Part shown: piece after piece, positions 42,201-53,745 of the stretch
How positions within the stretch are numbered: the first letter of the stretch is position 1
Layout of the letters: every line of letters starts with the position of its first letter
Origin: Deltaproteobacteria bacterium GWA2_45_12
GTDB taxonomy: Bacteria > UBA10199
Assembly (NCBI GenBank): GCA_001797365.1
Contig: MGPH01000030.1
Location: forward strand, 1,963-65,962
DNA length: 64,000 bases
Direction of reading: 5' to 3'
Program-made: the position numbers and the translations under genes
The notes under the pieces: model-generated
Databases searched by the model: none
What the model was told of the DNA's origin: nothing
The model's input: the letters and a program-made list of their open reading frames with translations, nothing else

Positions 42201-44399
42201 ATGACAAAAAAAATCCATTTTTTAATCATTTCCTTTTTCTTTCTCACCCTCTTTTTTAATCCATCATACGCCCAGGAACAGGGTCAGCCAAAAACAGATC
42301 TTCTTTTCATTATTGATTCCTCCGGAAGCATGGCCTCCCTTCTTGAAGGGCAGCGCATGATTGACTGGGCCAAAAAGGCTGTGAAAAGTGCCGCAGCCCA
42401 ACTGCCGCCCGAGGCTTACGCAGGACTTCGTGTTTATTCCCACCGTATCGATAAAAGTAACAAGGAAGCTAGTTGCAAGGATACGGAATTAGTTGTTCCC
42501 ATTTCTTCAGGAACAGGTTCGCTGATTGCGGCCTCTGCCGACAAGCTTGAGCCCCGCGGATGGACACCTATTGCCTATACTCTTTCGCAGGTGGAAGCCG
42601 ACTTTAACCAGAATGTCGAAAAACTTCATACCATTATCCTGGTCAGTGATGGGGAGGAAACCTGCGGCGGCGATCCGGCTGCGGTCATGCGCGCTTTGGT
42701 GGCCAAAGGGTATAAATTCAAGCTCTGCACGGTAGGGTTTAATGTGGAGGATGTGGCCAAACAACAACTCATGGCCTTAGCCAGCGAATTTGGCTGCACT
42801 TACACCGATGTTCGTAGCGGTATGTCGTTGGAGCAGGAATTGGCCAAGCTGACACAGCAAAGTTTTCTCATTGAAAAGAAGGTGAACCCAAAAAATCAAA
42901 TACGCGGTGGAGACAGTTTTAATGATGCCGTCCCCATTGAAACCAACAAGAGATACAGCCTGGACCATCATCAAAGGAAGGATCAATACGATTATTTTTC
43001 GTTTAAACTAAAGCAAGGTGAGGCCGTCTCTCTCCGAGTTTTCCCGGTTGAAAAATGCCTGGATGTCGTCGGGGATCAGGCGACAGAGCGCGCCAGCAGT
43101 TCGTGCGACTACGATGGGCTGCGGTATGTGTTGATGGATGGGCAGCAAAAAGAATTGGAGAGGTTGTCATTTTTCCTCGTCAACAAGCAGCATGAAACCG
43201 ATTTCTATACTTCTTCAGCACCAGGAGAGACCCTCTACTATCTCATCATTGGTAGCCCCTATGATGAAATGCATAAAGATCATGAATTCATCCTGACGAC
43301 CAAGCAGGGTACTTATACAGTGACGGGGTCATTGGGGGACGCCAATACGAATAATGATGCAGGGGATAATTTTTCTACCGCCATTGTTCTGTCTCCAGGC
43401 ATTTATGAAAACAACAGTGTTTCCAAAATGGATCAAGTGGACGTCTTTAAGGTGGTTTTGAAGGAACCTTCTTTGGTAAAACTTGTCGGTACCCATGTGA
43501 AAAAATCGGATTATGCGGATATTGATTTTGAGATTTTGGATGAATTAGGGGCCGTTCTTGGTAGCCAGGACCTTAGCGAAGGCAATTCCTATTCATTCCA
43601 GCCTCAAAGTCCGTTATCGGGCGCTATCTATCTGCGGGTCAAAATCGATTCCGTCATTGTGGATTCGGATACGGTCAATTATTCAATGGGTGTGTCGGTA
43701 AGCCCTGCACCGGTGGAGTTGATCGCAAAAGCCGTCGAAAAAACGCCTCCTCAAAAATCATCGGTGGAAGAAGTGGATGAAATGGAAGAGGTGGTTTTGG
43801 ATATAGTGCCATCCCCTCAAAAATTTACTCTGTGGCTGGGATTGGTTGCCTTGGCCTTTGCGCTGTTTGCTGGCCTGTATGTATTTTTCTTTGTGGTACG
43901 CAAAAAGGTCGCCGTGGATTTGTTCTCAAAAATTTTAGGGTGGTATGAGATCTTTGCCAGCATTATCGGCATGGGCACGGCTATTTGGCTAGCCACCAAG
44001 CAGCCTTCGCTTGCCTGGCAGATCGTGCTTTTGGTGATGCTTGGAGGCGTTGGTCTGCTTGGCATTATCGCCGGTGGAAATCTCTTATTGAACAAGGGGA
44101 GCAAACTTAGTTTTATTTGGGGAGGCCTCCAAGCCCCCTGGATTTACCTAAACCTTCATTGGGTGGTGGTGAAATATAGTCTTTCCTTGTTTTGGGGCCT
44201 GCCTGTTTACTTCTTCTTTGAAACGTCCCAAAACCCTATCGTCAATGTCCAGTCCAAAATGCATCTCGGGGCCCTATTTGGCTTATGGGCGCAATTCCTT
44301 TTCCCGGGAAGGGGCATGGGGATTGGTCTGGGCGTCAATCTGGCCGCGGTCCTGTTTTTGGGATTGTTGTATTTGAACCAGAGAAAAAAGACGAATTAA
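42201..44399 (+). CDS. von Willebrand factor A domain protein with a C-terminal polytopic membrane region
   Basis: Signal peptide; MIDAS DSSGS (FIIDSSGSM); about 6 predicted C-terminal TM helices. The start is taken at MTKKIHF (42201). Confidence 0.65.
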   Translation: MTKKIHFLIISFFFLTLFFNPSYAQEQGQPKTDLLFIIDSSGSMASLLEGQRMIDWAKKAVKSAAAQLPPEAYAGLRVYSHRIDKSNKEASCKDTELVVPISSGTGSLIAASADKLEPRGWTPIAYTLSQVEADFNQNVEKLHTIILVSDGEETCGGDPAAVMRALVAKGYKFKLCTVGFNVEDVAKQQLMALASEFGCTYTDVRSGMSLEQELAKLTQQSFLIEKKVNPKNQIRGGDSFNDAVPIETNKRYSLDHHQRKDQYDYFSFKLKQGEAVSLRVFPVEKCLDVVGDQATERASSSCDYDGLRYVLMDGQQKELERLSFFLVNKQHETDFYTSSAPGETLYYLIIGSPYDEMHKDHEFILTTKQGTYTVTGSLGDANTNNDAGDNFSTAIVLSPGIYENNSVSKMDQVDVFKVVLKEPSLVKLVGTHVKKSDYADIDFEILDELGAVLGSQDLSEGNSYSFQPQSPLSGAIYLRVKIDSVIVDSDTVNYSMGVSVSPAPVELIAKAVEKTPPQKSSVEEVDEMEEVVLDIVPSPQKFTLWLGLVALAFALFAGLYVFFFVVRKKVAVDLFSKILGWYEIFASIIGMGTAIWLATKQPSLAWQIVLLVMLGGVGLLGIIAGGNLLLNKGSKLSFIWGGLQAPWIYLNLHWVVVKYSLSLFWGLPVYFFFETSQNPIVNVQSKMHLGALFGLWAQFLFPGRGMGIGLGVNLAAVLFLGLLYLNQRKKTN

Positions 44400-46840
44400 A
44401 CTTCATATCCATCCCTACGCATGATTTCGGCGCGGATGATTAAATAGTCATAAAGGAATCGTCTTACTCGTTCCAGCCTTGATTCTATATCTATATCAAG
44501 CATGGGTATAAAAATTGAACTCAGTATGTCAGGAGTGTAATCAGGAACCTCACCATAGTAAACATAGGCCACAAGAATCATTTCCAACCAAAAACTATCT
44601 TCTCGGGGATAAATAAATTTTCCTTCTTTGACATCGTGTACCTTTTCATAACGATCACCGTTAAAGAATTTAAACAAGGCCGCTTCGGTTTTTTCGTTCA
44701 AAAGGGAATAATATTCAGATTGTTCAGGTGGAATGTGTTCCAAACCTTCCGGCCCCAGGGGGGTAAAATGCCACGGATAGGCAATGTTCCTGCCTTCTTC
44801 GGGGATGTATTTTTCAAGAAACTCGTCTTTTCGGGTGAGGTAGTAAAACAAAAAGAATTTGCTTTCATCCGACCACGCATAACCATCGAGTACTTTTCTT
44901 GCTAGATCCAAAGACAATTCAACCTTATCATCACTTCCCCGAGTGTGTAGCCATAGCAGCGTGGCTCCCAACCGTGGCGGCATCGCATCAAGGGGTTTAA
45001 TGTTCAATAGCTTTGCCATTAATCCCAAAAGACCCATGAATTCGTGCAATACTTCAAGCTTTTGATCGTTGCTCCATTGCGTATCTTTCAACACTGCCTT
45101 GGCTCGGCCCTCGAAAAGTAAGTTTTCAACGGCATCAACTAATTTTAAATCACCAAAATCTTCAAAGACGACTCGCGCTATGTTAAGACCCTTAGCATCA
45201 TGTATGCTCTTACGCCCTTGGTAGAAAGCGTGGGCTCTTTCATTGGCTTCTAAGACTTCGGCAATCGCCGAAGTTCTATCGAGCCTTCTTGTCGCCATTT
45301 CTTCAAGTTCGGTAAGATAGCGTTTATAAGCCTCGATGAGTGCCAATGTTTCTTGAACTGTTGGGGTTGGTTTTGCCTTGTCCTCGTTGGGAATTAAAAA
45401 AGCATATTTTTTTCTGAAGAGGGCGAGGGCTCTTTGGGAAAACTCCCTGTATTCGGGGGTTATTTCCAGGATGGGGTCTGGGTCTCGTGCTATTGATTCT
45501 GCATTTCTAACAAAACGAATCTCAACTGAGTCCCATTTACGCGGCGCTCGTAAGGTTGGACCATTTCTCCAAACCCCACTTTCTGTTCCCCAGATAAGAC
45601 AAAGGGAATGAAAAATTCTTGCACGTACCGTCTTATAAAATTCATCTTCATGCCCTTCGATTTTTTTGGTGCCATCGACATCCAAATTTACAAAACGACC
45701 ATCATCAGTGATGAGATACGTATTGTATTTCATGTCCTCCATGCGGTAGCCTTTTTCGGCCAATTCTTCGTACATGCGCATGGCCGTGCGTGCGTATCCG
45801 ATTCGTTTTGATGGATGTTGAAATAAAGGCCTGAGTCCTTGGGGATTGCCTAATGGTTTCATGGAATCATAACGATAATGATCCCCAAAATACCACCCAG
45901 TCACGTATTCCATCAAATAGGCGTTGTGGGCCACAAATTGCCTTTTCACAACTCCTGTTACGCCTTCAAGAAGAGGCAAGCTTTCCCGAAAGACGTGCTC
46001 CCAACCGGCTTTAAACAGCTTCAAGCAGATGGGCTTGCCTTGTTCGTCGCGCAATAAATAAACATTTGCCGATGCCCCATCTCCCAAAATTTTTTCCACA
46101 GTATAGATTGTTTCATTCAATAAACAGGACCTTCCTATTTGTACGGTCAGTTTGGAAACGATGTAAGCATTTCTTGCTATGGGTTTATGGGGCACCTCAC
46201 TTGGTGTAAGTATTTGGCCCTGTTTTAATATTCTTAAATAAAGAAAATCTCCTTCAATGATAGGACCTTTAATAGCATTTGTTGCTAACAGGGAATAAAC
46301 ATCCGAGGTGGGGTCACTTTCAATGCGGCTCGTAACGACATAGGTAACCCTGCCTATGGTGATCGTTGTTCCTAGACTAATGGGTGGTAAATCCCTGGTT
46401 AGATCTTCATCGACTATTACAGCACTTCCGGAACCACCTTCTGAAACAGTTAGGCTTCCCACTTGAGCTCGATGATCGCCCGGTGGATCGGAAGCACCCA
46501 TCATCTGCGGTCTTCTTAAGGGCAGCGTGCCTAATTCTTCTATAGCTCGAGTTGGTACTTTTTGTTCTAGGCCCGTTAGTTCTAAGCTTAAGGGCAGGGC
46601 CATGGCCGATGCGGCTTCTGCGAGCGTTTTAAAACGTGTGGGGGGAGTAAGCCTGAGGGCTAAAGGAACGGGGGCCAAAGAGCCATCATCGTACCCGTCT
46701 TTTGTATGTGATTTTGGGGTTGATGAGGGGGCATTTTTGGGATGTACCCGTGGTGCCCCGCTTACCCCAAGCCTGAAAGGGCCGCCCGGCATGGGGCGGA
46801 GGGGTATTGTTCTGGGAGTAAAAGAGAGAAGCTTGCTCAT
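44396..46840 (-). CDS. 814 aa protein with a divergent eukaryotic-like Ser/Thr kinase fold and a Pro-rich N-terminus
   Basis: Gly-loop LGDGASANVY, Lys motif ICLKLFK, Glu in FRESLPLLEG, hinge LMEYVTG, a catalytic-loop-like YRMEDMKYNTYLI (D-x-K-x-N) and DVDG in place of DFG. Its stop overlaps the stop of the convergent VWA gene. Confidence 0.5.
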   Translation of the reverse strand: MSKLLSFTPRTIPLRPMPGGPFRLGVSGAPRVHPKNAPSSTPKSHTKDGYDDGSLAPVPLALRLTPPTRFKTLAEAASAMALPLSLELTGLEQKVPTRAIEELGTLPLRRPQMMGASDPPGDHRAQVGSLTVSEGGSGSAVIVDEDLTRDLPPISLGTTITIGRVTYVVTSRIESDPTSDVYSLLATNAIKGPIIEGDFLYLRILKQGQILTPSEVPHKPIARNAYIVSKLTVQIGRSCLLNETIYTVEKILGDGASANVYLLRDEQGKPICLKLFKAGWEHVFRESLPLLEGVTGVVKRQFVAHNAYLMEYVTGWYFGDHYRYDSMKPLGNPQGLRPLFQHPSKRIGYARTAMRMYEELAEKGYRMEDMKYNTYLITDDGRFVNLDVDGTKKIEGHEDEFYKTVRARIFHSLCLIWGTESGVWRNGPTLRAPRKWDSVEIRFVRNAESIARDPDPILEITPEYREFSQRALALFRKKYAFLIPNEDKAKPTPTVQETLALIEAYKRYLTELEEMATRRLDRTSAIAEVLEANERAHAFYQGRKSIHDAKGLNIARVVFEDFGDLKLVDAVENLLFEGRAKAVLKDTQWSNDQKLEVLHEFMGLLGLMAKLLNIKPLDAMPPRLGATLLWLHTRGSDDKVELSLDLARKVLDGYAWSDESKFFLFYYLTRKDEFLEKYIPEEGRNIAYPWHFTPLGPEGLEHIPPEQSEYYSLLNEKTEAALFKFFNGDRYEKVHDVKEGKFIYPREDSFWLEMILVAYVYYGEVPDYTPDILSSIFIPMLDIDIESRLERVRRFLYDYLIIRAEIMRRDGYEV

Positions 46841-46947: not shown

Positions 46948-48732
46948 TTATTTTACCGACCATCCATTGGCTTCGCATATTTCAACATATGCTTCGGCAA
47001 TGCATTGAGTGCGCTCCTTAGCCGCCCGTTCAGCTTCTTTTCCTTGGTGTGCAAATCGATCGGGATGGTTTTCTTGCATCAATCGTAGAAAGGTTTTTTT
47101 AATGTCTGCTTGGGACGCGTCCCTGGCAATACCCAAAACGTAATAATAGGGATCTAGGTCTTTCCTTGTAGGCCTTTGATGGGTCTTTTTCCCTTGCTGG
47201 TTCGGCCCTCTTGCCTCTTGCTGTCCTGTTGTCTGTGGCGTGGGAATTTTAAAAGCTTTCGCTTTTCCAAATTTAACCCATGTTCCCGGTCCGACATACA
47301 CCTGACGATCAGAGCTTTTTAAAACCTCGATCCGGCCTCCAGGATGAAAAATATAAATAACCTTCCCACTCCCATCATGGGTTTCACTACTGATTCTAAG
47401 GTTAAAACCTTCTTTTTCTCGTTTCACTTGAAAATGAACTCCGCCATCATAATGTAATCCGTGGGAATGAGGGTAGATGTATCGATCAAAATCACTGAGC
47501 GATCTTAACCAAGCAGGCATGTTTCGAATGGGGAATCCAAATTGTATGAGTTGCCCCCCTATTTTATAAATCCGCCCCAATCGCAAGAAAACGGTTTCTC
47601 CTGCTGGTACTTGTCGTTTACTTCCACTATCAAAAACTTCTAATTCACCCTTTTCCAGACGAATCCCGAGGCCTTTGCCATTTTCTGGACTGTAGAAGAA
47701 TTCATAAGTCGATCCTCCGATGCTTTTTTTGAAAGGTGTATGGGGTTGATCATAGGCGTAAATGAGCCATCCCGTCATCCAAAGTGGCATGAGGGATATG
47801 GGGTTGATGAAACGATAGTATTGGCCGGGGCCATATTGGATGAGGTCCCCATCCACAAGAATATGTGTGGGCTTTTCTGCATTTAATGCGCGACGGTCAC
47901 GGTTGTTAATAACATGGAGTGGTTCACCATTTTTCCATGTCAACACAGGGTTGCTTTCAGCATCGTAGGAGATGCTTCCTTGTGAGGGGCCAGCATCAAT
48001 AGCTACAGATGCTTTGTTGTCAACGGCGGCTCCAATAAGAGCTGCCCCCATCGCTTCAGGCATTTCATCAAAGGGTTTGGTGAATTTGAAATATTGTTTG
48101 CCTATCTTAATGACCGCATCAAAAGGAATGCATTCTTCTTTTCCGGGTTTTAGTAAAACAGGTTCTTCCCCATCACGTAAAATGACCATGTCATAATAAT
48201 CCACCGTGAGGGTATTTCCTGTAGGTTGCCCATTGATCAGGCTATAGCCCCTTCCTGCTTGATACCGAATTCCATAATAGGGTTTTTCGTTAAATCCTCC
48301 TACCCTTTGACCCGGATTGCTCACAGCTTTTACACAGCTTTCAATGAAATAACTCGGCATGGGTTGGATTAATCTCTTATAGAGGAAAAATTTTCTATTC
48401 CCCATTTTGACCGAATCTCCTTCTTGGAGGACCTCTTTTTTACCAGAGGAATTCAGAACGATTTTTGTTTTATTCTCCTTTTTGACAATGACGATGGCCT
48501 CTCCTCCGGTCCATTCAAGAGTGAGCGCCCAAGGGTCTTCTTGGGTTACCTTTGCCTGAGCATGACCTATGTTAATGGTGGTTCCTTCAGGTTTTAAAAG
48601 AGTGGTGGCCAAAGCAATTTCTTCGGACTGGTTCATTTTTTCAAAGGGGCTACGAAACACAAAGGGAGGTTCATGGCCAAGGGTGATGATATCCCCATCT
48701 TTAAGTACAAGCTTCTGATCTCTAGAGTCCAA
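46948..48732 (-). CDS. C-terminal fragment: six degenerate FHA-like repeats + DnaJ J-domain (HPD)
   Basis: Repeat ends DIITLGHEPPFVF, DSVKMGNRKFFLY, DAVIKIGKQYFKF, DLIQYGPGQYYRFI, RIYKIGGQLIQFGF and TWVKFGKAKAFKI. J-domain DPYYYVLGIARDASQADIKKTFLRLMQENHPDRF...KEAE...EAY. Confidence 0.6.
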   Translation of the reverse strand: MDSRDQKLVLKDGDIITLGHEPPFVFRSPFEKMNQSEEIALATTLLKPEGTTINIGHAQAKVTQEDPWALTLEWTGGEAIVIVKKENKTKIVLNSSGKKEVLQEGDSVKMGNRKFFLYKRLIQPMPSYFIESCVKAVSNPGQRVGGFNEKPYYGIRYQAGRGYSLINGQPTGNTLTVDYYDMVILRDGEEPVLLKPGKEECIPFDAVIKIGKQYFKFTKPFDEMPEAMGAALIGAAVDNKASVAIDAGPSQGSISYDAESNPVLTWKNGEPLHVINNRDRRALNAEKPTHILVDGDLIQYGPGQYYRFINPISLMPLWMTGWLIYAYDQPHTPFKKSIGGSTYEFFYSPENGKGLGIRLEKGELEVFDSGSKRQVPAGETVFLRLGRIYKIGGQLIQFGFPIRNMPAWLRSLSDFDRYIYPHSHGLHYDGGVHFQVKREKEGFNLRISSETHDGSGKVIYIFHPGGRIEVLKSSDRQVYVGPGTWVKFGKAKAFKIPTPQTTGQQEARGPNQQGKKTHQRPTRKDLDPYYYVLGIARDASQADIKKTFLRLMQENHPDRFAHQGKEAERAAKERTQCIAEAYVEICEANGWSVK

Positions 48733-48751
48733 ACGAGTTATAGTATCTCCT

Positions 48752-50188
48752 TAAATCCGGCGTGAATGGTGTAGGGAATGCCTCCTTTGCTCAACACTGA
48801 CAGGCATTATAGAGTTTTTTGTGGCTAGTATTGAACCTAACTTTTAGTTAGCTTCAATACATGCGTTCTGGGGCTCGAAAAATCCGTACAAAATTCACCG
48901 CGTCTGGCCTCACTCATTTCGGTGGAATTTATCTCTTTCATAAATTTCTCCAGCAACTAAAAATACGATCCTGCTTCTTCCGACACCTGTCTTATTCTCA
49001 GAGAAACAATCAGTATTCTTTGAGCGAAATGATTTTGGCTTTGATTTATCCAATGATTCTTGGTTTGGAAAAAATCGAAGTGTCTTCTCTTCTGAAAACA
49101 AATGGCGTCTTTCATTTTCTGACTGGGCTCCCAACCTTTCCCGATCCTCAAACATTGCGCCGATTTTTGGTGAGGTCATCGACGGAACTGCTGCCGTCAC
49201 TTTGGAAAGTCCACAATGATCTCAAAAAATATTTCATCCTTCAATCTTCTACCCTCTCAAGTTTCTGTTTTGATTTTGATTCCACCGCGAAGACTCTCTA
49301 CGGAAAACAGGAAGGCGTGGTCAAAGGTTACAACCCCGGACATCCAGGAAGAAAATCCTATCACCCGCTGGTCGTCTCAGAAAGTTCTCTCAAGGATTGT
49401 CTGGGTGGATTTTTAAGGCCGGGGAACGCTTACACCTCAGATGGTGTGGTTGATCTTTTTCAACAAGCCCGTTCTATTCTGCCAACTTCCATCCGCTTGC
49501 GCACCCGTGCCGATTCAGGGTTTTATGATGGTTCTTTTGTCCGGACGCTGGACGAAAATCACGTGAAGTTTGCCATTGTTGCCAAGACATCTTCTCCTCT
49601 GAAGAAACTTTTTCTTTCGGCCCGCTATCAAAGAATCAACGACCGATTCTCAACCTCCGAGCTTTTGTATCAACCCGGCAAATGGAAAAAACCTTATCGC
49701 TATGTCGTCTTGAGAAGGATCGTTGATCCGGAAGACGACGGACTCACTCTTTTTACCTTGGACCGATATGCCTACTCGATGATCGTCACCAATCTCGATA
49801 TCACACCCTACGGAGTCTTCGATTTTTATAAAGCTCGAGCCGGGTTGGAAAGGATTATCCGGATTTTGAAAAACGACTTTCCTTTTGCCGGAGCGCCGAC
49901 CAATCATTTTTGTGCGAATGCTCTCTACGCGGAACTTTCTCTTTTGGCGTACAATCTCGTCATGTGGTTCAAGCGACTTTGTCTGCCGGGTGATTGGCAA
50001 TCCTTCACGTTGGAATCACTTCGGCACAAATTATTGCTGATGCCGGGAGAGTTGGTGCATACCGGAAATATTCACACACTCAAATTTCCGAGAAACAGTC
50101 CCAACAAGGATGTCTTTGAATTTGCTCTGAAGAAAATTAAAACGATGGACTCGCTGGTCTGAAAAATGGTGTTTTCACGCCGGATTTA
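48752..50188 (+). mobile_element. IS1380-family insertion sequence (~1.44 kb) with 15 bp perfect TIRs TAAATCCGGCGTGAA and a 9 bp direct repeat GTATCTCCT
   Basis: Left IR 48752-48766; right IR 50174-50188 (reverse complement identical). Direct repeats at 48743-48751 and 50190-50198; on the right a single G (50189) separates the IR from the repeat. Confidence 0.8.
48861..50162 (+). CDS. IS1380-family DDE transposase
   Basis: 433 aa; VKGYNPGHPGRKSYHPLVV matches the GYNP...Y.P hallmark of IS1380/ISEcp1-type transposases. RADSGFYDGSFV carries the second catalytic Asp. Confidence 0.85.
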   Translation: MRSGARKIRTKFTASGLTHFGGIYLFHKFLQQLKIRSCFFRHLSYSQRNNQYSLSEMILALIYPMILGLEKIEVSSLLKTNGVFHFLTGLPTFPDPQTLRRFLVRSSTELLPSLWKVHNDLKKYFILQSSTLSSFCFDFDSTAKTLYGKQEGVVKGYNPGHPGRKSYHPLVVSESSLKDCLGGFLRPGNAYTSDGVVDLFQQARSILPTSIRLRTRADSGFYDGSFVRTLDENHVKFAIVAKTSSPLKKLFLSARYQRINDRFSTSELLYQPGKWKKPYRYVVLRRIVDPEDDGLTLFTLDRYAYSMIVTNLDITPYGVFDFYKARAGLERIIRILKNDFPFAGAPTNHFCANALYAELSLLAYNLVMWFKRLCLPGDWQSFTLESLRHKLLLMPGELVHTGNIHTLKFPRNSPNKDVFEFALKKIKTMDSLV

Positions 50189-50851
50189 GGTATCTCCTCT
50201 CTTAACTTCAATGGGCAGTCCCCATACATGATAGGTGATTGTTACTTCATCAAAATAAACAGATCCTTGGAGTTTATATTGGTTGTGGAGACGGTATTGC
50301 CCCTCCTGTCCATGATTCACTTCGACAGAAAATCCCTCATTCATAAAAGTCCGGAAAACTCCCGCTTCAAAGATTGCTGGCATTTCCTCGCTGGGTGGTA
50401 CCGCAGCGGGAACAATAGCTGGAGGCGGTTCAGGAGCTGGAGGCGGAGGAACGGCACGAGCAGATCCACCCGAATCTTGAGCCACATGATGGCGAAAAGG
50501 AGTTTGCAGTCGATAACCCGGATTTGTAGTTCTTCGACCCGATCCATCGTTGGAAGCCATTTCGGGAAACAGAGCTCTGACCCCATCTTCTCTTAAACTT
50601 GGAAGTTGTTGCCCTTTCAAAACAAATTCATCCCTTCCATCAGAAGGGGCCCCCACAGCCAGTCGACGATTTTCTCGAGAACGTGAGACAGGTTGAGGAG
50701 GTTGAAGATCAGCTGGAGATGAAGATGGAGACAAATGAGGTCGCAAAGATGCGCCCGGTTTAGTTCCCCTAACGCGAGGGAAGGGGCCCCATCCTACGGG
50801 ACGAACACTGGGGCGAAAAGGCAGCACATTATTGGTACGAAAGATGGCCAT
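50186..50851 (-). CDS. N-terminal fragment of the interrupted gene (Pro-rich, 221 aa)
   Basis: AGGAGG lies 4 nt upstream of the ATG at 50849-51; PPPPAPEPPPAIVPAAVPP low-complexity segment. Confidence 0.6.
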   Translation of the reverse strand: MAIFRTNNVLPFRPSVRPVGWGPFPRVRGTKPGASLRPHLSPSSSPADLQPPQPVSRSRENRRLAVGAPSDGRDEFVLKGQQLPSLREDGVRALFPEMASNDGSGRRTTNPGYRLQTPFRHHVAQDSGGSARAVPPPPAPEPPPAIVPAAVPPSEEMPAIFEAGVFRTFMNEGFSVEVNHGQEGQYRLHNQYKLQGSVYFDEVTITYHVWGLPIEVKRGDT

Positions 50852-50925
50852 GCCCTCCTAGCTTCGGCTTTTTTCAAAATAAGTTGTTTGGGGTAGAACT
50901 TCATTTTACGCGTGGTGTCAAAGCT

Positions 50926-52740
50926 TTAGGAAGGTCTTTCTTGGAGGGCTCTTTGCAGACCTTCTATTCCCTGAGCCATCATGCTTTTAACAAAGTCATT
51001 AGAAGAGCCTTTTTTTCTGAACACAATAGCTGAAGCCCCTTGTGGAGAAGCATTCAGGTCGTTATCTATTTCCAAACCCAGTGTCTGCATTAAGTTTGCA
51101 TCCGGGCTATAGGGAAGAAGACTTCCTAACATGTTCGGAACAATGGTGGGCCCATTTCGTGGATCCGTAAATAAATAACCCTCTGGCACAAGAGCATCAA
51201 CAATTCGAATAAGGGTGAGCAGGCTAAAAATCCTGTCCCTCCGATCGCCATCGAGATAATCCTGAACAGGATGGAAGTAAGCCCCATGCATGGGAGGAAA
51301 TTCAACAGGGGTCACCACATAATCTCCCCTGGGTTGGAGTGTTATCCTTTTTTTAAGAGAATCACCGGGAATCCTTAGTGTAGCGACCGCAGCGGCTTTT
51401 TTTCCATGCCCCCTCATCCAAGTGACCCCTCTAACAGGAGTGGCTGAGGTACTCGAAATGAACGCCTCATAGGCTTTTCTTTCGGCCCTCACTTCCTCCC
51501 GCCACCGTGCCCCATAGGCTTGCCAAAACATCTGAGCGATTTCGGGATCATCAGGATAGAGTTCATAGGGGACCCAACTTAAAAAAACGGTAAGGGTACC
51601 ATCAAACTCATCAATGAGCTTAAGTGGTTCTGGTTCATCATTATAAACAAGGACGCGCATTTTTGGATCCAGACTCGCTAAAAGAAAGGGCTCATAAGTA
51701 GCATAGAGGGTACGTCCATTAGGATGATCAAATTTTAAATATCCAGGGCCAAAATTACCAAAAACGATTTCCTGATAGCGTTCCCTTAAACGAGGAATGA
51801 TGTTTTCCCTTAAATAAATCCATTCGGCAGCTCGTCGCGCAAACGTGGTGAAGTTGCGTATGATTCTGATGTCATCCCTGGTGCGACCGCGGTTCTCTCT
51901 GGCTTCCCTTAAAGAAGGAGTCGCATGGACGACGCCCTCTGGTCCCATAGCCAAGCGTGCTTGCGTCGCTCGATATACATTATCAGCTGTAACAATTCGA
52001 GAAACCCGTTCCATTTCAGCTCGGACGGAATCTGGTAGAGGTTCGACAGGAGTCACTGCGCCCACTTCCATTTCATCGGCAAGGGATGGGATATGGGCTA
52101 AAATCAACCCTTCTACATGGGCCGGGTCTGCTAAAAAATTTTCTGCACCAGCACCCAATTTTTTTACAAATTCTAAAACTCGTTCGATAACGAGGGCACG
52201 ATTAGCAGCTACTATCGTGGGGTCCCGGTCCAGGGCCAAAGCCAGTGAGGCACGTTCGCTTATGCTACTCATGCGAGCCATAAAATCAGGGTTTGAAAGG
52301 ATGCGAGTCACAACTTCTTTACTCTTTATAGCAATACCTTGATCAGGACTTATTGATGAATCTGCAGGCCGATCACTGCTGGCGGCTTTCCATCCCTCAT
52401 GATGATGCCCCACTAAATTCCCATGCCCATCGTATTGGGGAACCCACAAGGGAGCACGAAGGGAAGGAGTGTGTAAGCTTATGTCTGGAAAGGGAGTGGT
52501 TCTATTCCAATATCGATCTTTCCCGATGTCTGGCGCTAGTGAGCTATTTGTATGAAGCAAATCACCTGGTTTTAAGCTTACCTTTGCAACACTTTTTGAA
52601 CGAGAAGGAGGTGGAATAACGGGATGTGGTGTTGGCCTTAATACAAGGCTTCCGGGTACAATACGTGCACCAGAAAAAGATCGAAGGGGTCTATAGAAGG
52701 ATGGCGGACTCATAAATAAATGATAGTTGATCTTCGGCAA
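50926..52740 (-). CDS. 604 aa hypothetical protein (Pro-rich N-terminus; no known domain)
   Basis: The ORF-track start is TTG; the first ATG is at codon 10. It is in frame with, and separated by a single TGA from, the upstream squalene/phytoene-synthase-family ORF. Confidence 0.5.
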   Translation of the reverse strand: MPKINYHLFMSPPSFYRPLRSFSGARIVPGSLVLRPTPHPVIPPPSRSKSVAKVSLKPGDLLHTNSSLAPDIGKDRYWNRTTPFPDISLHTPSLRAPLWVPQYDGHGNLVGHHHEGWKAASSDRPADSSISPDQGIAIKSKEVVTRILSNPDFMARMSSISERASLALALDRDPTIVAANRALVIERVLEFVKKLGAGAENFLADPAHVEGLILAHIPSLADEMEVGAVTPVEPLPDSVRAEMERVSRIVTADNVYRATQARLAMGPEGVVHATPSLREARENRGRTRDDIRIIRNFTTFARRAAEWIYLRENIIPRLRERYQEIVFGNFGPGYLKFDHPNGRTLYATYEPFLLASLDPKMRVLVYNDEPEPLKLIDEFDGTLTVFLSWVPYELYPDDPEIAQMFWQAYGARWREEVRAERKAYEAFISSTSATPVRGVTWMRGHGKKAAAVATLRIPGDSLKKRITLQPRGDYVVTPVEFPPMHGAYFHPVQDYLDGDRRDRIFSLLTLIRIVDALVPEGYLFTDPRNGPTIVPNMLGSLLPYSPDANLMQTLGLEIDNDLNASPQGASAIVFRKKGSSNDFVKSMMAQGIEGLQRALQERPS

Positions 52741-52758: not shown

Positions 52759-53745
52759 TCATTTTAGAGAATTTTGGATGAGTTTATGAGAAAAAGTCAG
52801 GAAACAGGAGGTGATTACTACCCTTTTTAAGGTTTTCCGGGAGATTTTATGAGGGAGGGTGGGGTCTAATAAGTTTGGGTCTTCTTTTAGGAAACGAAGG
52901 GTTTCCAAGCCGATCATGCAGGGGAGAAGTGTGGCTAGGCGGGTGGTGGCGTGTTTGCGTGGGATTATTTCCATGTATTTTGCAGCATATTTTAAATGGC
53001 CCAAGGCCCGTTGGATCAGGTTTTCTATCAGGCGGTCAAGAGCGGGTTTGTTTTGGGGATCCTTTAAATTTGTGGGAGTCAGGTTGAATTGTTTCAGAAT
53101 TTCAAGCGGGATATAGCATCGCCCCATGTTTAGGTCGCAAGCAAGGTCCTTGATCACATTGGTCATCTGAAGGCCTTTTCCATAGGCAATGGCCCACTGG
53201 TCTACTTCATTTTCAGAAATTATTTTAAGAGGGAAAGTCAGCTTTAGCATTTGTGTCCAAAAAGGCCCCACAATGCCTGCGGCATCAAAGCAGTAGGTTT
53301 CCAAGTCAGCTTCTGTTTCCAAGGCGACAGGGTTTTGTTTGGTGGCATGGGCAAAACGTATTAGATCTTTTTCCATCCCCCCTATAAGATGAAGCACGAC
53401 ATCGCGAATCAGTTTTTTTTCTTTTTCATCCGTTTCAGAAAAAAGTTTTAAAATGTTTGGCAGTTCTTGAAGTAGTTTTTGTTCATCCGTGAAATTTTGA
53501 TGGGAAATTATTTGGGCAAAAAAATGATCCCAATCTTTTTGCTCATGCCAAGCACCGTTGATCTCGTTTTTTAAGAGACTTAAAAATCTTTCTTTTTCTT
53601 GAACCGGAAGAACCGGTGTGTCGGTGATGGTGTCGGCACTTCTAGCCAGTAAATAGGCCAGTGCCAAGGGAGTGCGTGTTTTTTTAGGCAGGATGCGAAG
53701 CGACAAATAAAAACTGCGCGATACTTTTTTGAGGATGGTTTTCAC
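52759..53745 (-). CDS. squalene/phytoene synthase family protein (HpnC/HpnD-like trans-isoprenyl diphosphate synthase, head-to-head)
   Basis: 328 aa; N-terminal SRSFYLSLRILPKKTRTPLALAYLLARSADTITD (first Asp-rich motif D-T-I-T-D). Confidence 0.7.
   Translation of the reverse strand: MKTILKKVSRSFYLSLRILPKKTRTPLALAYLLARSADTITDTPVLPVQEKERFLSLLKNEINGAWHEQKDWDHFFAQIISHQNFTDEQKLLQELPNILKLFSETDEKEKKLIRDVVLHLIGGMEKDLIRFAHATKQNPVALETEADLETYCFDAAGIVGPFWTQMLKLTFPLKIISENEVDQWAIAYGKGLQMTNVIKDLACDLNMGRCYIPLEILKQFNLTPTNLKDPQNKPALDRLIENLIQRALGHLKYAAKYMEIIPRKHATTRLATLLPCMIGLETLRFLKEDPNLLDPTLPHKISRKTLKRVVITSCFLTFSHKLIQNSLK

What the first reader, a model, noticed from the sequence alone, without database searches (positions are those of the whole stretch)
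46948..50851. IS1380-family element inserted in frame into a single roughly 818-codon gene; precise excision restores the reading frame
The 221 aa ORF (50186..50851) and the 594 aa ORF (46948..48732, TTG-initiated, no ATG) are in the same phase on either side of a 1437 bp element bounded by perfect 15 bp TIRs (TAAATCCGGCGTGAA) and a 9 bp direct repeat GTATCTCCT. Both stop codons that delimit the fragments are supplied by the IS termini (TTA at each end reads TAA on the minus strand). Conceptually removing the IS and one repeat gives ...VKRGDT-ITR-LDSRDQKLVLK... with no stop. Either this is a recent inactivation, or the two halves are still expressed separately; the upstream half keeps a strong AGGAGG RBS, and the IS carries outward-reading sequence. 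A 9 bp target duplication is longer than the 4-5 bp usually quoted for IS1380, which is worth noting. On the right side the repeat is offset by one extra G.
Basis: seen in the sequence. Interest (0 to 1): 0.7.

Follow-up and report, generated by a model that had tools for sequence, protein, structure and literature searches.

The report
IS1380 insertion splitting an orphan gene
A small mobile element of the IS1380 family has landed inside one roughly 818-codon gene of unknown function in an uncultured groundwater bacterium; this is an ordinary gene disruption, and the "unusually long" 9-base duplication is really a 6-base one.

Summary
The core observation holds. An intact IS1380-family element sits between two same-strand ORFs. 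Removing it plus one target copy (1447 nt, not 1437+9=1446) fuses them into one open 818-codon frame (...VKRGDTITRLDSRDQ...). Both delimiting TAA codons lie in the IS termini.

Corrections:
- Comparison with 23 related IS copies places the ends at CYTAAATCC...GGATTTARG. The element is therefore 48750..50190 (1441 nt) with 17-nt TIRs (16/17).
- The target duplication is TATCTC (6 bp). Relatives give 5 bp (8 copies), 6 bp (5, including this one) and 4 bp (1).

The "single gene" reading is the best supported but is not proven by homology. The protein is an orphan: an exhaustive HMMER search of 1.84 billion representatives returned only its own two halves, and no uninterrupted allele was found. 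Support comes from phase, the absence of a native stop or convincing start at the junction, and an internal repeat that aligns across the junction.

A second strain variant (99.7% identical) carries the same left junction, so this is neither an assembly artefact nor a one-clone event. Whether the halves are expressed is untested. Overall: an ordinary, new member of a known kind.

The parts
48750..50190 (+). Complete IS1380-family insertion sequence, 1441 nt
   Evidence: Ends were set by comparison with 23 related copies (CYTAAATCC...GGATTTARG). The closest relatives are also 1441-1446 nt (L014, L004, L007). There is no second copy in the window.
48750..48766 (+). Left terminal inverted repeat (IRL), CTTAAATCCGGCGTGAA
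   Evidence: It matches the reverse complement of 50174-50190 at 16 of 17 positions. The perfect 15-nt core is reported. The motif is conserved in relatives.
48828..48860 (+). Stem-loop ending at the transposase start codon (arms 48828-42 / 48846-60)
   Evidence: The inverted repeat is 93% complementary. Its predicted energy is -16.4 kcal/mol, z = -4.4. An equivalent hairpin with different sequence precedes the start codon in 15 of 16 relatives at z <= -3.1.
48861..50162 (+). Transposase gene, 433 aa, intact
   Evidence: NF033539 IS1380 family transposase, 254.3 bits (cutoff 180), profile positions 2-418 of 419. PF13701, 181.5 bits. The closest other proteins are 84-87% identical.
50174..50190 (-). 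Right terminal inverted repeat (IRR), CCTAAATCCGGCGTGAA on the minus strand
   Evidence: It contains the TAA (50186-50188) that ends the 221-aa fragment.
48744..48749 (.). Target-site duplication, left copy, TATCTC
   Evidence: It directly abuts the IRL and is identical to 50191-50196.
50191..50196 (.). Target-site duplication, right copy, TATCTC
   Evidence: It directly abuts the IRR.
50186..50851 (-). 5' fragment of the interrupted gene: codons 1-221 plus a TAA supplied by the IS
   Evidence: The last codon, ACT in the restored gene, reads ACC here. Both encode Thr, so the truncated product carries no foreign residues.
46948..48750 (-). 3' fragment of the interrupted gene: frame open from the IS boundary (GDTITR-LDS...) to the native stop; codons 219-818 of the restored gene
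   Evidence: frame 2 translation. The first candidate starts are TTG at 48732 and ATG at 48636.
46987..47148 (-). C-terminal J domain (HPD motif present)
   Evidence: Pfam DnaJ PF00226, 38.7 bits (cutoff 27.8), residues 529-582 of the 594-aa ORF.

Best explanation
A 1441-nt IS1380-family insertion sequence transposed into codon 221/222 of a single 818-codon gene. It has an intact 433-aa DDE transposase and 17-nt terminal inverted repeats, and it duplicated 6 bp of target (TATCTC).

The gene encodes an orphan protein with three regions: a proline/arginine-rich N-terminal region, a beta-rich middle with degenerate internal repeats, and a C-terminal J domain. The host is the uncultured groundwater bacterium 'Deltaproteobacteria bacterium GWA2_45_12'.

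The insertion truncates the protein after residue 221 at a TAA inside the right IS end. It separates the remaining 597 codons, including the J domain, from their promoter and start codon. The most likely consequence is loss of function of the full-length protein (inferred). The insertion may also be polar on the 814-aa gene downstream (inferred).

Both halves remain free of further stops or frameshifts, and the IS itself is intact. This indicates an evolutionarily young insertion, although it is already shared by two strain variants.

Shown: family membership, element ends, the duplication, frame restoration, and presence in independent assemblies. Inferred: the one-gene status before insertion, and inactivation.
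For: - Transposase family: (254 bits against a cutoff of 180).
- Ends and duplication. Of 24 copies, 14 have clean 4-6 bp repeats abutting CYT...ARG. The three copies whose base before CYT is not A (window C, L014 T, L027 T) all repeat that base in the right flank, so that base is target DNA.
- Frame. Only the 1447-nt deletion gives one 818-aa ORF.
- The upstream ORF has no stop of its own before the IS. The downstream frame is open right up to the IS.
- The segment spanning the junction (restored residues 195-257) aligns collinearly with an internal unit at 475-539. The score is 58; shuffles give 31.8 +/- 5.3 with a maximum of 53 in 200.
- The part upstream of the junction, taken alone, aligns to the stretch directly N-terminal of that unit (score 42; 12 of 500 shuffles are as high).
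- The locus is identical in contigs from three assembly pipelines.
- A contig from another sample with 6 SNPs has the same IRL junction.
Against: - No homologue and no uninterrupted allele exists in any collection searched. One-gene status therefore rests on internal evidence only.
- Phase agreement alone has a 1 in 3 chance.
- A leave-one-out profile of the internal repeat hits only the post-junction part, residues 221-249. The repeat evidence for the pre-junction part is therefore weak (p about 0.02).
- The structure prediction was uninformative, with mean pLDDT 35.
- L136 covers only the left junction.
- The 4:2 ratio of nonsynonymous to synonymous SNPs says nothing about selection.
Confidence: 0.8

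Rival explanations
1. Gene fission with retained function. The insertion is as described, but both fragments are still made and used. The N-terminal 221 residues would come from the native start. The J-domain fragment would come from TTG 48732 or ATG 48636. Transcription would come either from read-through across the IS or from a promoter inside it.
For: - Both fragments are still open, with no secondary lesions.
- The insertion is shared by two strain variants that differ by 6 SNPs.
- An AAGGAG lies upstream of the TTG at the junction.
- No terminator-like site on the minus strand lies inside the IS.
Against: - The AAGGAG-to-TTG spacing is 14 nt, which is long. The ATG at codon 33 has no Shine-Dalgarno sequence.
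- Promoter-like hits in the region are at or below chance: 4 found against 5.2 expected.
- The family's known outward promoters are at the other end of the element (PMC9330008).
- The break falls inside a repeat unit rather than between units.
- Open frames are equally expected for a young pseudogene.
Confidence: 0.12
2. There were two separate genes before insertion. The IS landed at the very end of a roughly 221-codon gene or between two genes, and the matching phase is coincidence.
For: - The phase match has a one-in-three prior.
- No homologue spans the junction.
- The 221-aa part differs in composition from the rest: G+C 0.49-0.54 against about 0.44.
Against: - The upstream ORF has no native stop. 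Its stop is IS sequence.
- After IS removal there is no stop anywhere between the two parts.
- No start codon with a well-spaced ribosome-binding site opens the downstream part.
- The junction-spanning alignment to an internal repeat argues against it.
Confidence: 0.05
3. Assembly artefact. A repeated IS was wrongly placed in this contig by the assembler.
For: - Related IS copies in the same metagenomes do produce chimeric short contigs, seen as mismatched flanks in L005-L012.
Against: - A perfect 6-bp duplication flanks the element, and the flanks join into one ORF.
- The locus is identical in ENA, NCBI (GCA_003501025.1) and Logan (SRR6482819) assemblies.
- The same left junction is present in a SNP-bearing contig from another sample.
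- This exact transposase was found only at this locus: 6 contigs, all the same place.
Confidence: 0.03

Closest known systems
ISEcp1 and other IS1380-family insertion sequences (ISfinder family IS1380)
   Same: - Single DDE transposase of about 430 aa that passes the NCBIfam IS1380 equivalog cutoff.
- Short terminal inverted repeats, with the IRR starting CC.
- Short target duplications that begin with T and mostly end with A in this clade. ISEcp1 makes TATGA, 5 bp. Relatives here make TNNNA, 5 bp, in 7 of the 8 five-bp cases.
   Different: - At 1441 nt it is shorter than the 1550-2000 nt range I recall ISfinder giving for the family (my own knowledge, not checked here).
- The duplication is 6 bp here, and it ends in C rather than A.
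- The transposase is at most 87% identical to any other protein in the collection, so by the usual ISfinder practice it would get a new IS name.
- No passenger or mobilised gene is present.
Closest relatives in metagenomes (P0002-P0009, 84-87% aa identity; loci L004, L014) and the P0014 group (68%; L005-L012)
   Same: - Same length class, 1441-1446 nt.
- Near-identical right end, AAAAATGGTGTTTTCACGCCGGATTTARG.
- Same hairpin in front of the start codon.
   Different: - They lie at different insertion sites, mostly on IS-length contigs, as expected for multicopy elements.
- The window copy is the only place where its exact transposase was found.
J-domain co-chaperones with a C-terminal J domain (DjlA-like arrangement)
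   Same: - C-terminal J domain with the HPD motif. Pfam DnaJ scores above its cutoff.
- The best NCBIfam match is DjlA, over the J region only.
   Different: - The DjlA match is 50.9 bits against a cutoff of 162, so the protein is not a DjlA.
- The remaining roughly 750 residues match no family, no solved structure and no other protein.

Membership tests
IS1380 family insertion sequence | Transposase matches the family profile above the curated threshold | tested here: met
   NF033539: 254.3 bits against a cutoff of 180, nearly full-length. PF13701 DDE_Tnp_1_4: 181.5 bits against 34.7.
IS1380 family insertion sequence | Single long ORF flanked by short terminal inverted repeats | tested here: met
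   There is one 433-aa ORF. The 17-nt TIRs match at 16/17, with a 15-nt perfect core.
IS1380 family insertion sequence | Termini beginning CC (ISfinder description, from my own knowledge) | tested here: inconclusive
   The IRR starts CCT and the IRL starts CTT. Relatives show CYT at both ends.
IS1380 family insertion sequence | Target duplication of 4-5 bp | tested here: inconclusive
   It is 6 bp here (TATCTC). Across 14 clean copies in the clade, including the window: 5 bp in 8, 6 bp in 5, 4 bp in 1. If the conserved flanking A and T are counted as IS bases, the duplication would be 4 bp. It is not 9 bp under either reading.
IS1380 family insertion sequence | Length 1550-2000 bp (descriptive range in ISfinder, from my own knowledge) | tested here: not met
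   The element is 1441 nt. The clade spans 1441-1535 nt. This is a descriptive range rather than a defining property, and it does not outweigh the profile match.
IS-interrupted gene (insertional pseudogene) | Removing the element and one duplication copy restores one uninterrupted ORF | tested here: met
   A 1447-nt deletion gives 818 codons with no internal stop.
IS-interrupted gene (insertional pseudogene) | An uninterrupted homologue or allele spans the junction | tested here: not met
   None was found. HMMER over 1.84e9 representatives returned only the two halves. The exact 818-aa sequence is absent from the 15e9-protein collection. The genome and metagenome scans were empty. This is absence of data, not evidence for two genes.
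J-domain protein | J domain with HPD motif | tested here: met
   PF00226: 38.7 bits against a cutoff of 27.8. The sequence ...LMQENHPDRF... carries the HPD motif.

The most novel reading that the evidence does not exclude
The IS insertion is a maintained gene fission rather than an inactivation. On this reading the free-standing J-domain fragment is translated from the TTG at 48732, or from the ATG at codon 33. It would use the AAGGAG that straddles the IS-target junction. Transcription would come from read-through, or from a promoter within the IS running antisense to the transposase. The disordered 221-residue N-terminal piece would act separately. The allele would have persisted in more than one strain variant because it is tolerated or useful.
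Probability: 0.1. Interest if true: 0.35.

Novelty: new member of a known kind. Interest (0 to 1): 0.15.

Why it matters
There is little here beyond annotation.
- The two 'hypothetical proteins' (OGP09267.1 and OGP09269.1) should be annotated as fragments of one interrupted gene.
- The element should be annotated as a new, compact IS1380-family member.
- The comparison across relatives gives a cleaner definition of this clade: ends CYTAAATCC...GGATTTARG, 4-6 bp duplications that mostly read T...A, and a conserved hairpin abutting the transposase start codon. That may help automated IS annotation in metagenome-assembled genomes.
- The target gene is an orphan, so its disruption tells us nothing yet about physiology.

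Tried and rejected
- AlphaFold2 on the restored 818-aa protein without an alignment gave mean pLDDT 35 and pTM 0.21. It is unusable for asking whether the junction lies inside a fold.
- Pfam at E <= 10 on the restored protein and on the junction segment returned only DnaJ, with no FHA or other domain. My impression that the 'L..GD.i..G...F.F' motifs are FHA-like is therefore unsupported.
- The PDB sequence search found nothing below E = 0.1.
- The metagenome scan produced one locus, L015. Its match is 33 residues in a phage-like region outside any long ORF, so it is spurious.
- The first genome-contig scan with the protein found nothing.
- The N-terminal resemblance between the 221-aa fragment and the neighbouring 814-aa protein (LPFRPS..RP..GPF) is not significant: BLASTP E = 1.1.
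- I first set the IS ends at ACTT...AAGT, which gave a 4-bp duplication, ATCT (after). I revised this. The base before CYT varies between copies, and it is always repeated in the right flank.
- The 18-mer end motif scan of genome contigs returns many chance hits. About 140 are expected by my own arithmetic for 596 Gb. Only about 38 of 120 loci carry a transposase, so raw hit counts mean nothing.
- RNAalifold on a MAFFT alignment of the pre-ATG hairpins predicted no structure because the alignment was out of register. Single-sequence folds were used instead.
- The plasmid collection has no match to the IS.
- Promoter and terminator scans were at chance level.
Full report
**1. What is in the sequence**

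The window matches a contig of the metagenome-assembled genome 'Deltaproteobacteria bacterium GWA2_45_12'. The 594-aa ORF is OGP09267.1 and the 221-aa ORF is OGP09269.1.

A perfect 15-nt inverted repeat lies at 48752-48766 / 50174-50188. It has no other exact copy in the window. The 9-mer GTATCTCCT occurs at 48743-48751 and 50190-50198.

The 433-aa ORF is a full-length IS1380-family transposase. NCBIfam NF033539 scores 254 bits against a cutoff of 180, covering profile positions 2-418 of 419. Pfam DDE_Tnp_1_4 scores 181 bits.

**2. Frame arithmetic**

I tested four deletions. Removing 1447 nt gives a single 818-codon ORF with no internal stop, reading ...IEVKRGDTITRLDSRDQKLVLK.... That deletion can be described as 1437 + G + 9, or equivalently as 1441 + 6. 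Removing 1446 nt, or the 1437-nt core alone, gives 50 stops.

The 221-aa ORF ends at a TAA inside the right IS end (50186-50188). Its last sense codon changes from ACT to ACC, both Thr, so the truncated product has no foreign residues. On the other side, a TAA at 48751-48753 in the left IS end closes the frame that leads into the downstream half.

**3. Where the IS really ends**

The transposase has many relatives, at most 87% identical. Most sit on contigs of about IS length, as expected for multicopy elements. I fetched copies with flanking DNA. I also scanned genome contigs for the end motif. About 38 of the 120 loci carry a transposase; the rest are chance hits, in line with my own estimate of about 140 chance matches in 596 Gb.

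Across 24 copies the conserved sequence begins at CYTAAATCC and ends at GGATTTARG. Directly abutting those ends, 14 copies have clean direct repeats:
- 5 bp in 8 copies (TTTAA, TTGAA, TGTTA, TTAGA, TACGA, TCTCA, TATAA, TACTT);
- 6 bp in 5 copies (TTATTA, TGAGTA, TATATT, TAATAA and the window's TATCTC);
- 4 bp in 1 copy (TTAA).

The rest lack a repeat. At least in the P0014 group this reflects chimeric short contigs, since the same flank is joined to different partners.

The base just outside CYT is usually A and the base just outside ARG is always T. I first counted these as IS bases, which would make the window's duplication ATCT (4 bp). In the three duplication-bearing copies where the left base is not A (window C, L014 T, L027 T), that base is repeated in the right flank. 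It is therefore target DNA. The duplications mostly read T...A, like the classical TATGA of ISEcp1 (PMC2887853).

For the window this gives:
- IS = 48750..50190, 1441 nt;
- IRL CTTAAATCCGGCGTGAA and IRR CCTAAATCCGGCGTGAA, matching at 16/17;
- duplication TATCTC at 48744-48749 / 50191-50196.

G is flank on the left and the last IS base on the right. CT is the first two IS bases on the left and flank on the right. That is a 1-in-64 coincidence. The 9-mer is in the same register as the duplication, so it would serve as the repeat for any slippage-type precise excision. It is not a 9-bp target duplication, and nothing here is atypical for the family.

**4. Is it one gene?**

No outside evidence exists:
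- A word-indexed search with the restored protein found only the 594-aa half.
- An exhaustive HMMER search of 1.84 billion representatives, with the J domain removed from the query, found only the two halves themselves.
- The exact 818-aa sequence is not among 15 billion proteins. The 90% clusters of the halves contain only fragments and alternative start calls from the same locus.
- The genome and metagenome scans found no relative.

The protein is an orphan. Its neighbours of 814 aa and 604 aa also match no Pfam family.

The internal evidence favours one gene:
- (a) The upstream ORF has no stop of its own.
- (b) The downstream frame is open right up to the IS, 6 codons before the first possible start (TTG) and 38 codons before the first ATG.
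- (c) The phases agree.
- (d) The TTG lies 14 nt from the nearest GGAG, and the ATG has no Shine-Dalgarno sequence.
- (e) The restored residues 195-257, which straddle the junction at 221/222, align collinearly with an internal unit at 475-539. The score is 58. Composition-preserving shuffles give 31.8 +/- 5.3, with a maximum of 53 in 200.

The repeat evidence is uneven. Taken alone, the post-junction part is clearly repeat-like (score 51; 0 of 500 shuffles as high). The pre-junction part is only marginally so (score 42; 12 of 500), although it aligns to the stretch immediately N-terminal of the same unit. A leave-one-out profile recovers only residues 221-249. I therefore rate one-gene status as likely, not proven.

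**5. Is it real and how old?**

Contigs from three independent assembly sources (ENA, NCBI GCA_003501025.1 and Logan SRR6482819) are 100% identical to the window across the element. A 2046-nt contig from a different sample (ERZ28563591) is 99.7% identical and has 6 SNPs. Four are nonsynonymous and two synonymous, and five lie within 57 nt. It carries the same IRL junction and 114 nt of the IS.

So the insertion is not an artefact, and it predates the split of at least two strain variants.

The exact transposase was found only at this locus, and no second copy or fragment is in the window. The transposase, the TIRs, the duplication and both gene halves are all intact. This fits a young insertion, and equally a tolerated one.

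**6. Consequences (inferred)**

The full-length protein can no longer be made, and the J domain is uncoupled from the native start. Promoter-like and terminator-like motifs in the region are at chance level.

[quoted passage not shown] Here that end points antisense into the 221-aa fragment, not toward the downstream half.

The genes at 52759-53745 (squalene/phytoene synthase family), 50926-52740, the split gene and 44396-46840 are all on the minus strand with short gaps. Polarity on the 814-aa gene is therefore possible.

**7. Verdict**

This is an ordinary insertional disruption by a new, compact member of the IS1380 family. The '9-bp duplication' point, which carried much of the claimed interest, does not hold. 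Interest is low.

Noticed in passing
window 48828-48860; same position in L004, L007, L013, L014, L117, L124, L092, L051, L028, L106, L058, L022, L087, L128: A 13-15 bp bipartite stem-loop ends 0-2 nt before the transposase start codon. It is present in relatives down to about 42% amino-acid identity, with different stem sequences (compensatory changes). Predicted energies run from -12 to -28 kcal/mol, and z is -3.1 to -7.7 in 15 of 16 copies. No Shine-Dalgarno sequence lies outside the stem. It may occlude the ribosome-binding region of the transposase mRNA.
   Followed up: partly
L004-L014 and L016-L135 (table): In this IS1380 clade every clean target duplication begins with T, and 11 of 14 end with A (TNNNA or TNNNNA). 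This matches the TATGA of ISEcp1. Duplication length varies from 4 to 6 bp between copies.
   Followed up: partly
loci that carry a transposase, e.g. L095, L080, L064, L028 (Patescibacteria/CPR), L092 (Dehalococcoidia), L051 (Planctomycetales), L058 (Rokuibacteriota), L022 and L087 (Terriglobia), L013 (Chlamydiae): The same end motif (TTCACGCMGGATYTARG) and a related transposase occur in very distant phyla, including candidate-phyla-radiation genomes. The right end stays almost invariant while the transposases diverge to about 40-60% identity.
   Followed up: partly
L005-L012 (P0014 group): Short metagenome contigs carrying identical IS copies join the same left flank to different right flanks (for example L005 versus L007). 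This is evidence of chimeric assembly across a multicopy IS in the same groundwater data sets.
   Followed up: partly
window 44396-46840 (-) and 50926-52740 (-): The two large genes flanking the split gene (814 aa and 604 aa) match no Pfam family. Like the split gene, they start with a proline/arginine-rich stretch. The similarity between these N-termini is not significant (BLASTP E = 1.1).
   Followed up: partly
window 47944-48000 versus L136: Five of the six SNPs that separate the two strain variants cluster within 57 nt of the 594-aa fragment. This suggests a small recombination tract or a mixed-strain consensus.
   Followed up: no
window 50852-50859: The AGGAGG upstream of the 221-aa ORF is separated from the ATG by only 2 nt, which is unusually short spacing. 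The true start may differ, or initiation may be inefficient.
   Followed up: no
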